This document shows positions 11,548-63,157 of a DNA stretch of 64,000 nucleotides, piece after piece. Origin of the DNA: Octopus vulgaris (Eukaryota); contig OX597836.1 in NCBI GenBank assembly GCA_951406725.2, positions 23,312,001-23,376,000 on the forward strand. Reading direction: 5' to 3'. A program made the position numbers and the translations under genes. The notes under the pieces were generated by a model. That model saw only the letters and a list, made by a program, of their open reading frames with translations. It was not told where the DNA came from and ran no database searches. Within the stretch, counting starts at the first letter, position 1. The number at the start of each line of letters is the position of its first letter.

Positions 11548-11749
11548 ATGTGACCGCGTGTGTACCGTTGGCGATTTTTTTCCCTCTGTCTTCCCTTCTC
11601 TGGATCTTTCCTTCTCCTATGTTTCCGACGAAGAGCTCCGCTCGAAACGTTAAACCCTCCTTCTTTCCTTCTTTCCTGAGCGTCCAATAATACTATATTT
11701 GTTCCACGTCCTCGCATTGTTGTGTTTTTTTGTGCTTTCTTGTTTGGAT

Positions 11750-11753
<4 letters not shown>
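11548..11753 (+). mobile_element. Short HHR-bearing element, family H2, ending at (TA)n
   Basis: Pyrimidine-rich element containing the HHR fold at 11621-11655. Shares TTCCTGAGCG, TAATAC and CCAC downstream blocks with family H1. Its 3' end recurs at 52419-52478. Confidence 0.65.
11621..11655 (+). ncRNA. Minimal type I hammerhead ribozyme fold (C4 variant)
   Basis: GTTT | CCGACGA | A | GAGC-TCC-GCTC | GAAA | CGT-T | AAAC. Stem I GTTT/AAAC, palindromic stem III ACGT, predicted GUU cleavage site. Confidence 0.65.
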
Positions 11754-12103: not shown

Positions 12104-12288
12104 TAGATCGTTAGCTCCTACTCGCATTTTTTTCTCTCCTTGTTTTTTTTTTCTGTGTATCTTTCTGTCGAAGAGCGTAGGCTCGAAACGTAAAAGACTT
12201 TTTCTATTCCTGAGCGCTATACTAATACATTTGTTTGTTTGTACTCCACCTGCCTTCGTCTTTTGTTTATTTTCGCAAACTTCCCCTT
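12104..12288 (+). mobile_element. Short HHR-bearing element, family H1, between TA tracts
   Basis: One of four homologous ~185-200 bp copies (12104, 38886, 44944, 62970), each flanked by (TA)n. Confidence 0.8.
12160..12197 (+). ncRNA. Minimal type I hammerhead fold with CUGUCGA core
   Basis: TCTTT | CTGTCGA | A | GAGC-GTAG-GCTC | GAAA | CGT-A | AAAGA. Confidence 0.65.
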
Positions 12289-13478
12289 TATATATATATG
12301 TATATACACACACTTGTAATAAAATATATTTTACAAAATATGAAGTGAATGTAACAGTGTTTTAAATAATTGTCGTGACTCTGCCATTATACAATGGTGT
12401 GTTTTCTGTTTATAGAAAAAGGTAAAATGCAAACCAATCAACCGTAAACCAATCAAAGTCTATTGTGGGGTTGCGGAAAGGTACGTTACAGAGTATGCGG
12501 TGTATGTAGGGGTGGTTGAGGTGGCGTTGGTGTTGGTTGTGGTGTTGGTGGTGTTGGTGGTGGTGGTGGTGGTTGTGGTGGCAATATTCGTGTCGACGGT
12601 GGAGGTGTTTGGTTGAGCTAATATTGGTGGTGGTGGTGTCGGTGTGTGAGAGGCGGCAGCTGTTGTATTTCGTGTTGGTCGTGTTGGGAAAGGCATTGAT
12701 GGTGATGGTGATGGTGGCGGTTGTATTCCTGCCTGTGACTGTTAATAATTGTGGAAGTAATACATAATACTAGCGGTGTTGCTGTTGTCACAATGAGGGT
12801 GGGGGTGAGGTGGGGGGATACAATGGCTGTGGCTGGGGTGGGGGTGGGGGAATACAATGGCTGTGGCTGTGGCGGTAATGGTGGTTACGGTGGGTGTCGG
12901 AGAGCAAGCTTATCACTGAATTGAAACGACAGCAAATGTAAATATAGATATCACTCCGCTCGCCCCTAAACAAACCCACAGCCGAAGACTATTTAAAATA
13001 TGGGGCGGGTGTCTTAATAGCGTCGATGGGTGATGATTCATATAATACCCCTTTAGGTCAGTGGGGCACAATGACGAATGTACAAACATATTTTTATATT
13101 CTTAGGACGATCATCCCTTTAGTATATCGGGCTAATGTTTATTTAGATATGAATAGTGTACAAGAGAAGAAGGGAACACAGAAGAATAATTTAAGTAAAT
13201 ATTCATTCGATCTTATGACATTACGTTTGCTTACTTTGACAACACATTTAGAGTTGTTTGGGGAGTTCAAAGTTATGTTCCGAACGCGAGGCTGGCGAAT
13301 CGACATGGCGGCCACTTGTCAAGATCCAGTTACAACATCCGGAAGAAACGTATTAACTTAATCAATTTCGGTGTAACAAACAAACCCGAGTTTGACACCA
13401 GCCGACAACAAGCGAAACAGTGTCCCACGTCAAGTGATAGCACTATCCAGGAGTGTGATTGCTGTCCATCAATGTCAA

Positions 13479-38887: not shown

Positions 38888-39088
38888 CGGGAAGCTTTAT
38901 GAAAATAAACAAAAGACGAAGGCAGGTGGAATACAAACAAACAATTGTATTAGTATGGCGCTCAGGGATATAAATAAAACAAGTCTTTTACGTTTCGAGC
39001 CTACGCTCTTCAACAGAAAGATACACAGAAAAGAAACACAGAAAGAAACAAGGAGAGAAAAAAAATGCGTGCAGAGGCTAGCGAATCA
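38886..39088 (-). mobile_element. Family H1 HHR-bearing element (HHR 38984-39021, CUGUUGA core)
   Basis: Minus strand: TCTTT | CTGTTGA | A | GAGC-GTAG-GCTC | GAAA | CGTA | AAAGA. TA flanks. Confidence 0.8.
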
Positions 39089-40045
39089 ACATATATATAT
39101 GTGTATGTGTGTGTGTACATATATGTGTGAAACTACCATCAATGCATCAAGGTTCACAGCATGCATTCCGGACAAACTGAGATTATGATTATTGCTGTTT
39201 GCTAAAATAATTTTGCAGTTTTTTCATTAAGCCTCTGCTGTGCATTATTTTTATAAGCAGCCATAACTGTACAAGTATAATTCTGAAAACACTTTTCGTT
39301 ATACAACAATCTCGTTTCCCTTCCTTCTTGCTTTCTCTTCATATCATTTCTTCAGATACCCTGATGCTCTAATTTGGTGAGTCATTTTTAATAAACGGGG
39401 ACACATGTACTACTATCAGCCCAGGGTAACCTGAGCAAACAACAGCAATTGTAATGTTTTCGAACACGAATTCTGATACAAAATTTGTCCAAGATCTCAC
39501 CGTCACCCGATACCAGACGCCAGGCAGATGTGTAACTTGAACCTTGCTACCTCAATGACCCCAAAACAGTTCAATGATTTCAGAAACTGAGACAAATCGG
39601 AAAGAAATAAACTCTTTTCCTCTTTCGTTGATTTTTAAGAATTTTTTTATTTTATTCTTCCTCCTCTTCGTCTTTCCCTTTTTTTTTGGTCACCATTGTT
39701 GTTGTTGACAAGGGAAGACACTGGAATGGAGACGAAATATTTGGAAACTGGAAAACAAAACGAAGAAATAAGTTGTAAAGAAGGAAAACTATTGTAAAAG
39801 AAGTAAATAAAATGGAAGATAAAAATCAGAGTTATCTTCTGTAGGATTTGAAATCAGAATGTAAAGTTGTGTTTCATTATTGATTTCTAACATAGGTCAA
39901 AGGTCACATATTTTGGGTGTGTTATAAGGATAAAGCGCCACGACCGGCCCCCCTTTTTTTTTTACCAACAACAGAAGAATAGAGCGAAAAGTTGGCCTTC
40001 ACAGGATTTGATCTCAGAATGTAGTGCTAATAAAAATAGAGATCC

Positions 40046-44756: not shown

Positions 44757-45137
44757 GGCGCAGGAATGGCTGTGTGGTTAAGAAGCTTGCTTTCCAACCA
44801 CATGGTTCTGGGTTCAGTCCCTCTGCGTGGCACCTGGGGTAAGCGTCTTCTATAGCTTCTGGCCGACCAGAACCTTGCGAGTGGATTTGGTAGACAGAAA
44901 CTGAAAGAAGCCTGTCGTATATATATATATATATATATATATAGGGAGAGTTTACGAAAAAAACAAAAGACGAAGACAGGTGGTGTACAAAACAAACAGA
45001 TGTATTAGTATAACGCCCAGGAATAGAAAAAGTCTTTTACGTTTCGAACCTACGCTCTTCTACAGAAAGGTACACAGAAAAAACAAGGAGAGAAAAAAAT
45101 GTGTGTAGTGGCTTACGATCTATCATGGCAATCTATC

Positions 45138-51850: not shown

Positions 51851-52474
51851 AATGTTACAATGAAAGTAGATTTCGTTTCTCATTTCATTTATATATTTAC
51901 GAGCGCTTGAAGCAACTAAAAAATTATAGATCTTGGTAAAGCTGTGTTGCTAATAACAGTGTTTTACTCGTTAATGGTTACTCTGTAAGTAGAGAAGGCG
52001 GTTAAATGATAGAGTAACACTTTGGCTCAGTTAGTTTAACCAGTTATTCTTGTAGTTGTTGTGCAGTTTGAACAGAGAAATGGCGGACTCTCACCCACTC
52101 ACCAACAACATGGAAAGCTTTACTACTCGTCCCGGCCTATGCTTCTCTCTCTCTCACACACACACATACACACACACATATGCACACTCGCGCGCACATA
52201 CACTACGTATATATACTGGCACTCCGTCAGTTACGAAGATGAGTGATCCAGTTGATTCAAGTGCATTGGGATCGAACATGGAACTAAGTGTTTACGAAGT
52301 GATTTTTATCGTATAGTTCTATATTTAAGAGATGAGGGATTACGTAGATTATTTACATTAGTAACATTTGACGGACGTAGATAATGTAAATAATGTAAAT
52401 AATGTACATAATTTGCATGTACCACGTCCTCGCGTTGTTGTTTTTCTTGTGTTTTTTTTGGGGGGCGGGTTAAT

Positions 52475-62969: not shown

Positions 62970-63157
62970 CGCCATGATAGATCGTTAGCCACTACACACA
63001 TTTTTCTCTCTCCTTGTTTTTTCTGTGTCCCTTTCTGTAGAAGAGCGTAGGCTCGAAACGTAAAATACTTTTTCTATTCCTGAGCGTTATACTAATACAT
63101 CTGTTTGTTTTGTACACCACCTGTCTTCGCTTTTTTGTTTTTTTCGTAAACACTCCC

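What the first reader, a model, noticed from the sequence alone, without database searches (positions are those of the whole stretch)
12160..12197. Family H1 conserves a non-canonical hammerhead core, CUGUNGA (U at position 6)
All four copies have T where the nearly invariant A6 should be (CTGTCGA, CTGTTGA, CTGTAGA, CTGTAGA). The free position 7 varies (C/T/A), as in real HHRs. Stem II (GAGC/GCTC, one copy with a G-U wobble), GAAA, palindromic ACGT and the GUA triplet are kept. A fixed U6 across diverged copies implies the family amplified with this core rather than decaying to it. It is either a natural active variant, a deliberately slow ribozyme, or a fold kept for RT recognition.
Basis: partly seen in the sequence, partly recalled or inferred. 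Interest (0 to 1): 0.75.

Follow-up and report, generated by a model that had tools for sequence, protein, structure and literature searches.

The report
U6-core hammerhead in young Penelope elements
A jumping-gene family with thousands of copies in this animal genome, including young intact ones, carries a hammerhead RNA motif with U in place of a normally fixed core A; it likely works as a slowed, protein-assisted self-cutter, but cutting is untested.

Summary
Observation confirmed. The four copies are solo end-repeats (pLTRs) of a Penelope-like retrotransposon (RT plus C-terminal GIY-YIG). U6 is the family state: 8,017 of 8,325 exact genome matches, 67 of 71 copies sampled from a flank anchor, and both end-repeats of young elements with unbroken frames (up to 99.8% identical between chromosomes). 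Along a ladder of nine hand-sorted subfamilies whose flanks differ by up to 38%, only N7, H17 (C/A/U, never G as majority) and one old A6 group change in the motif. Relatives in other animals have A6, so U6 is derived. Against a finely tuned variant: the sister family H2 is younger still and spreads with U4C plus a stem I mismatch, published CUGA mutants are slow, and few copies start at the predicted cut. Best reading (0.5): an attenuated, protein-assisted dimeric hammerhead that must usually stay uncut while RT copies across it; main rival (0.3): a non-cutting fold kept for protein binding. I found no natural U6 core in eight literature searches, but could not read Lunse 2017. The scan had not noted this sequence before; it noted other core variants in this genome. 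New variant of a known kind; interest 0.5.

The parts
12105..12289 (+). H1 solo pLTR (5'-truncated Penelope-like element end), between (TA)n runs; subfamily S6 type
   Evidence: 82% to the young pLTR of L132 over 204 columns; no ORF fragment in the window
12160..12197 (+). Minimal type I hammerhead motif: stem I 12160-12164/12193-12197, core 12165-12171, extra A 12172, stem II 12173-12184, G12-A14 12185-12187, ACGU palindrome 12188-12191, H17 12192
   Evidence: architecture as in Cervera and De la Pena 2014
12168..12168 (+). Position 6 of the core, U instead of A
   Evidence: 8,017 of 8,325 exact genome matches
62970..63157 (+). H1 solo pLTR, subfamily S5 type; motif 63030-63067, core CTGTAGA, one stem I mismatch
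44944..45134 (-). H1 solo pLTR, subfamily S5 type; motif 45070-45033, core CTGTAGA, G-U wobble in stem II
38888..39092 (-). H1 solo pLTR, close to the young subfamily (92%); motif 39021-38984, core CTGTTGA
11551..11752 (+). Sister family H2 solo pLTR; motif about 11621-11655 with A6 but C at position 4 (CCGACGA); used as comparison

Best explanation
This is the minimal hammerhead motif in the end-repeat of a Penelope-like retrotransposon family that has spread with U at core position 6, and it likely acts as a slowed ribozyme that would cut only as a dimer helped by the element's own protein. Shown: the motif lies in sense in both pLTRs of 4.5-kb RT-GIY-YIG elements; U6 is carried by the young intact copies and has lasted through most of the subfamily ladder; all other catalytic letters are held while N7 and H17 change; most genomic copies were written from RNA that was continuous across the cut site; the two end-repeats of one insertion were copied from one template segment. 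Inferred: two motifs in one read-through transcript pair through ACGU to form stem III; U6 lowers the chemical rate (from published A6 and CUGA mutants); a low rate is tolerated or favoured because reverse transcription starts about 100-110 nt downstream of the cut and has to cross it; occasional cutting and rejoining would give the circle that explains unit-plus copies and head-to-tail tandems. In U7 subfamilies U6 is predicted to pair with A15.1 and close the monomer, which would add a folding brake.
For: Family state: 8,017 of 8,325; A6 (about 65) and G6 (about 34) match the decay control at U4 (about 63 and 22; splits extrapolated from hand counts of the 100 listed rows). Flank-anchored sample: 71 of 90 copies keep the motif, U6 in 67, N7 U30/A22/C12/G7, H17 A56/U13/C1/G1; 4 of 37 motif columns polymorphic (N7, H17, two CpG G's) against 41 of 115 flank columns, Fisher p=0.004 (3' flank alone 24 of 69, p=0.01). 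Young elements: 20 long-ORF loci, all motifs in their sense orientation U6; units 95-99.8% identical. Ladder: flank majorities differ by up to 0.38; N7 majority changes about six times, H17 four times and never to G. Stem I has a compensatory swap between H1 and H2 (C-G to G-C at 2.4/1.4). U6 holds 94-99.8% of contig depth in runs of four other organism labels; in label D only the ~40-nt motif lays at depth while the flanks do not. Related elements elsewhere have A6 in 7 of 8 descriptor hits. 16 substitutions private to one insertion are shared by its two repeats (10 insertions). Literature: minimal PLE hammerheads cut slowly and only as multimers (PMC4209133); the Anolis PLE hammerhead cuts only with its protein (PMC11167929); natural A6C is active at under 0.1 per min (PMC3088659).
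Against: No cleavage was measured. In pairwise mutagenesis of a type III hammerhead all CUGA changes except the C3/G8 swap were low and none was rescued (PMC9901934). Sister family H2 is 99-100% identical among young copies, has unbroken 883-884-aa frames in 3 of 8 fetched stretches and carries U4C plus a U-U mismatch in stem I in 30 of 30 loci; two old H2 copies have G17. In vitro the Anolis element inserts equally well with a dead hammerhead. Of 31 truncated loci read by hand, about 7 start within two bases of the cut, 4 inside the core and 20 downstream, with AT microhomology blurring all: no clear spike. Loop II, free in a hammerhead, is also nearly invariant, which points to a sequence-specific contact beyond catalysis; an old sub-branch has a U-U mismatch in stem II (L145, L146). 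Single-site stasis of U6 is weak evidence: one or two changes on the ladder against four to six at free sites. The closed-monomer effect is seen with 8-nt flanks in U7 subfamilies only. Shared private changes fit a template jump as well as a circle.
Confidence: 0.5

Rival explanations
1. The motif no longer cuts in any way that matters. Its shape and sequence are kept as a binding or positioning site for the RT-endonuclease protein (or another RNA-level role), and U6 was fixed once catalysis stopped being selected.
For: H2 spreads with U4C and a broken stem I and old H2 copies have G17; CUGA mutants are low with no rescue; dead-hammerhead RNA inserts in vitro and no reads end at the cut in Anolis; loop II is held as tightly as the core; no clear pile-up of 5' ends at the cut; 71 of 90 sampled copies span the site.
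Against: The two positions that change repeatedly among H1 masters are exactly the two that the catalytic consensus leaves free, H17 moves among C, A and U but not G, and the only subfamily-level departure from U6 is to the canonical A. A protein reading this fold would have to mimic the catalytic constraints.
Confidence: 0.3
2. U6 is a fully active alternative core: in this dimeric, protein-bound context (extra A after A9, loop GUAG) uracil does the job of A6, so the consensus should read A or U at position 6.
For: Long stasis of U6 with every other catalytic letter intact; presence in four other organism labels; an A6 subfamily nested among U6 subfamilies suggests that both letters work.
Against: Published position-6 and CUGA changes are slow; no compensating change is visible in the core; H2 shows that impaired cores spread here, so stasis does not need full activity.
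Confidence: 0.12
3. U6 was selected for a reason unrelated to catalysis that overlaps the motif, such as closing the monomer into a rod (U6-A15.1) or extending the pyrimidine tract of a splice acceptor.
For: Predicted open-core probability falls from 0.09-0.49 (A6) to 0.01-0.02 (U6) in four U7 contexts and from 0.49 to 0.09 in one A7 context with 8-nt flanks; the motif follows a long pyrimidine tract.
Against: No such effect, or the reverse, in C7 and G7 contexts or with 25-nt flanks, and the oldest U6 subfamilies are C7; no joint or loose end at an acceptor inside the motif among the rows shown.
Confidence: 0.08

Closest known systems
Minimal type I hammerheads in pLTRs of metazoan Penelope-like elements (Cervera and De la Pena 2014, PMC4209133; read main text parts 1-2 of 4 and supplement parts 1-2 of 3)
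   Same: Type I order, extra nucleotide after A9, G10.1-C11.1, short stem I, palindrome in place of stem III, one motif per pLTR, thousands of solo copies.
   Different: All representatives in their Fig. S3 as read have A6 (their descriptor required it) and no cephalopod is listed; the core variant they report is U3-A8. Here U6 is the majority state of an expanding family.
Natural core variants A6C (phage Bcep176) and U4C (viroid) (Perreault et al. 2011, PMC3088659; passages only)
   Same: Single substitutions in the CUGA turn that occur in nature and are slow in vitro (A6C under 0.1 per min); U4C is the change in sister family H2.
   Different: Those are rare single examples with full stem III; no U6 is mentioned in the passages seen; here thousands of copies and long persistence.
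PAc Poseidon element of Anolis (PMC11167929; passages and part 2 of the main text)
   Same: PLE hammerhead upstream of the RT start, AT-rich targets, tandem locus.
   Different: No core change is reported for PAc in the passages seen; its ORF starts inside stem II, while here the ATG lies about 750 nt downstream; PAc cleavage was measured (protein-assisted), H1 was not.
Small hammerhead variants of PLEs that cleave as dimers (Lunse, Weinberg and Breaker, PMC5785218; not held, seen only as a citation and through the review PMC6765202)
   Same: Short stem III, dimer requirement, PLE association.
   Different: Unknown: whether their large collection holds U6 cores could not be checked.

Membership tests
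EN+ Penelope-like element | Single ORF with RT and C-terminal GIY-YIG endonuclease | tested here: met
   1,080-aa frame from ATG in L125 with DKG, YIDD and a GIY-YIG-type C-terminus; Pfam RVT_1 above cut-off, GIY-YIG E=0.007 but below cut-off; 394 homologs, the listed ones with RT/GIY-YIG-type domain sets
EN+ Penelope-like element | Direct pLTRs, partial and full head-to-tail tandems, (TA)n targets | tested here: met
   4.5-kb units with two motifs in 11 of 20 long-ORF loci, triple tandem L135, 5' repeats of 0.5-1.6 kb; (TA)n flanks
Neptune/Nematis clades | CX2-5CxxC linker between RT and endonuclease (PMC8557442, passages) | tested here: met
   CX4CXXC in H1 and H2 proteins
Neptune/Nematis clades | Placement in the clade on an RT tree with named references | not tested
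   No named reference proteins were fetched; Neptune versus Nematis left open
Minimal PLE hammerhead | Stems I and II, extra base after A9, G10.1-C11.1, palindromic 15.1-16.1, NUH triplet | tested here: met
Hammerhead ribozyme | Core consensus C3 U4 G5 A6 N7 G8 A9 / G12 A13 A14 (PMC3088659) | tested here: not met
   A6 is U in 67 of 71 sampled copies; all other core letters met. Filed as a variant, not a consensus member
Hammerhead ribozyme | Site-specific self-cleavage after H17 | not testable with these tools
   Only contigs were served; genomic 5' ends were inconclusive
Hammerhead ribozyme | Match to an Rfam hammerhead model | tested here: inconclusive
   No hammerhead family among 150 shown of 166 window hits or 41 hits on five copies; the A6 copy L217 was missed too, so these models do not cover the minimal form
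Non-LTR retrozyme | Short tandem non-coding repeats with canonical type I hammerhead (PMC7229834, passages) | tested here: not met
   Copies are dispersed truncated ends of a coding element

The most novel reading that the evidence does not exclude
A6 is dispensable in protein-assisted dimeric hammerheads: this Penelope lineage uses U6 as a selected brake (or as a fully working alternative core), so that cutting is timed by the element's own protein, and consensus-based searches miss whole families of working ribozymes.
Probability: 0.22. Interest if true: 0.75.

Novelty: new variant of a known kind. Interest (0 to 1): 0.5.

Why it matters
Why Penelope elements keep hammerheads is open: the motif is nearly universal in them, yet slow in vitro and dispensable in the one reconstituted system. 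This genome offers a natural series inside one lineage: canonical A6, long-lived U6 (H1) and U4C with a broken stem (H2), the last two in very young elements with unbroken frames. Measuring these with and without the element's protein asks directly whether cutting or shape is selected. If U6 cuts, a position treated as invariant is not, and descriptor searches that demand A6 undercount hammerheads by thousands in genomes like this one.

Tried and rejected
Decay of a canonical core: rejected. Chance motif: rejected. N7 variation as CpG decay alone: rejected, since N7 follows subfamilies and young intact copies are U7, though CpG decay is visible at other sites. Separate U6 families with different stem II sequences: 566 matches with a changed 10.2 position, the 100 listed nearly all decayed H1; one or two rows look compensated and were not followed. 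A C6 subfamily: C6 is about three times the C4 control (about 209 against 72), but U4-to-C makes a CpG that can be lost, and C6 copies are scattered over subfamilies; not accepted. Folding z-scores are not significant (1.09, 1.06, -0.20, -0.38, 1.65). Rfam gave only microsatellite noise. No solved-structure match for the protein. Viral contigs held no relative. Sequencing runs: no RNA holder listed on record, contigs only; the absence of a variant row at position 6 was uninformative (the known N7 variants were not listed either), so one search used an A6 reference. The 5'-start histogram was discarded (the young reference misaligns old flanks). Rows dropped: 19 of 90 flank-anchored loci under 70% identity over the motif (those seen are truncated or interrupted by simple repeats); 22 of 252 copies without a recognisable 3' flank; one search used 89 hand-picked copies. 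Papers not held: Lunse 2017, Arkhipova 2017, Scott 2013 and one further hammerhead review whose id was recalled. Literature searches for a natural U6 core showed none in the listings; only listings were seen for most hits. PMC11014351 has no A6U/A6C/A6G passage. The bioRxiv retrozyme preprint was read in part 1 of 5 only; its supplements are closed, and the supplement of PMC9901934 was listed but not read, so per-mutant values for A6U may exist unseen.

Full report
OBSERVATION. The flagged stretch reads as a minimal type I hammerhead: stem I 12160-12164/12193-12197, core CTGTCGA at 12165-12171, one extra A, stem II GAGC/GCTC with loop GTAG, GAA, the palindrome ACGT and H17=A at 12192. All four sit in ~190-200-base elements that end in (TA)n. 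A relaxed descriptor finds 5 motifs in the window (four H1, one H2) against 0.1 in shuffles. The genome is 2.8 Gb in 227 contigs; earlier scan notes call it octopus-like, which I did not test.

IS U6 THE FAMILY STATE? An exact 35-mer with positions 6 and 7 free has 8,325 matches; 308 have a non-T at 6, so U6 is 96.3%. By hand count of the 100 rows listed, the non-T copies are 68 C, 21 A, 11 G; the control with U4 changed has 157 matches, 46 C, 40 A, 14 G of 100 listed. Transversions at 6 thus sit at the decay background. To avoid choosing copies by the motif, I anchored on a 19-mer about 60 nt downstream of the cut (20,661 matches) and took the first 90 of the 100 listed. 71 keep the motif; position 6 is U 67, A 3, C 1; N7 is U 30, A 22, C 12, G 7; H17 is A 56, U 13, C 1, G 1; C3, G8, A9, A13, A14 and U16.1 are invariant. 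Four of 37 motif columns are polymorphic (N7, H17 and two CpG guanines) against 41 of 115 flank columns (p=0.004; 3' flank alone 24 of 69, p=0.01). Pyrimidine tracts inflate the flank figure, and other flank blocks are conserved too.

WHAT CARRIES IT. Extending 5' from longer copies reached an RT thumb and a GIY-YIG domain in the same sense. A protein search returned dozens of copies with one identical score. Of 20 long-frame loci fetched, 11 hold two or three motifs about 4.5 kb apart; every motif in the element's sense has U6; units are 95.4-99.8% identical, 99.8% between two chromosomes. [quoted passage not shown] The youngest subfamily has GUU, not GUA. The window copies are solo truncated ends of this element.

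HISTORY. 89 hand-picked copies, treed on flanks only, form a ladder of nine groups from 22% to 1.5% divergence from their own majority; oldest and youngest majorities differ by 38% (grouping was by eye and partly informed by motif letters). N7 runs C, C, U, U, C, G, A, C/U, U; H17 runs C, A, A, A, A, U, A, A, U; position 6 is U in eight groups and A in one old group (5 of 6 copies, two of them from the flank-anchored sample). Whether that group is a side branch or an interlude is unresolved. Related elements from metagenome contigs (best segments 41-66% identical) show the same architecture with A6 in 7 of 8 descriptor hits and G6 in one (80 loci), and the representatives of Cervera and De la Pena's Fig. 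S3 as read all have A6: U6 is derived. Laid on an A6 reference, contigs of four runs with other organism labels read T at position 6 in 97.9%, 99.7%, 93.6% and 99.8% of depth (depth is not copy number, and labels may be near relatives). In label D only the ~40-nt motif lays deeply while the flanks do not.

THE SISTER FAMILY. H2 (window 11551-11752) has 11,613 exact matches; of 100 listed, by hand count 74 have C4, 24 U4, and 98 have A6. Its youngest copies are 99-100% identical, form 6.2-kb tandems with unbroken 883-884-aa frames in 3 of 8 stretches fetched, share 68% protein identity with H1, and carry U4C plus a U-U mismatch in stem I in 30 of 30 loci. Two old H2 copies have G17. So two lineages here spread with impaired cores. 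Between H1 and older H2, stem I shows one compensatory pair.

TEMPLATE CLUES. In 10 insertions with both repeats, 24 substitutions are shared by the two repeats, 16 of them found in no other 3' repeat of the set; 26 are in one repeat only, some at repeat boundaries. Both repeats were therefore copied from one template segment, which fits a circle or a template jump; two sibling insertions differ between repeats by the same 2-base slip, which fits less well. If cut RNA were a common template, copies should begin at 1.1: of 31 distinct loci in the first 100 rows, about 7 begin within two bases of the cut, 4 in the core and 20 downstream; inconclusive. Folding predicts a U6-A15.1 closed rod in U7 contexts only.

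MECHANISM. Published data: minimal PLE hammerheads are inactive as monomers and weak as multimers (PMC4209133); the Anolis PLE hammerhead cuts only with its protein, dead mutants still insert, and no reads end at the cut (PMC11167929); natural A6C is under 0.1 per min and U4C is weak in vitro but viable in a viroid (PMC3088659); CUGA mutants are low without rescue (PMC9901934). My best reading (0.5) is a slowed, protein-assisted dimeric ribozyme: catalytic geometry is still selected (free sites are N7 and H17, no G17 majority, only A replaces U6), while speed is not, because RT starts downstream of the site and must cross it. The main rival (0.3) is a non-cutting fold kept for protein recognition; H2, the invariant loop II and the Anolis result speak for it. 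Full activity (0.12) and an overlapping folding or splicing reason (0.08) follow.

NOVELTY. The element type and motif architecture are known. A family-wide, long-lived U6 core was not found in eight searches, but the largest survey of such variants (Lunse 2017) could not be read. The scan has no note on this sequence or with all these words; it holds unchecked notes on other core variants in this genome. Verdict: new variant of a known kind, interest 0.5: real, large-scale and directly testable, but one of several tolerated core changes rather than a proven new chemistry.

Noticed in passing
window 11551-11752; L465-L469: Sister family H2: very young tandem elements (6.2-kb unit, 99-100% identical) carry U4C, GUC and a U-U mismatch in stem I; older H2 subfamilies have U4, and L414/L416 have G17.
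   Followed up: partly
L025, L036, L177, L217, L298: Old H1 subfamily with canonical A6 nested among U6 subfamilies; side branch or U-A-U interlude unresolved.
   Followed up: partly
L313:1420-1640: Copy with an H2-like 5' flank, A6 core, H1 stem II and H1 3' flank; a possible recombinant or intermediate between the two families.
   Followed up: no
L145, L146 (centre): Old H1 sub-branch with a UUCG loop II and a U-U mismatch in stem II in two independent loci.
   Followed up: no
L331:1981: Related element from a metagenome contig with a descriptor hit that has G at position 6; single copy, may be decay or chance.
   Followed up: no
L007:1500-1700: Two H1 ends fused as an inverted pair, and L232/L233 an inverted pair 0.5 kb apart; typical fold-back PLE insertions.
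   Followed up: no
L125-L139 ORF end: The H1 frame runs on into a low-complexity Pro/Ser/Leu tail of variable length; H2 has a ~2.7-kb pyrimidine-rich 3' UTR.
   Followed up: no
window 5353, 31744, 49066: Three copies of another dispersed repeat that contains GAAACGT but no hammerhead core.
   Followed up: no
window 52418-52458: Short fragment of the H2 3' flank at the edge of a long (TA)-rich tract (about 52-56 kb, 10-14% GC).
   Followed up: no
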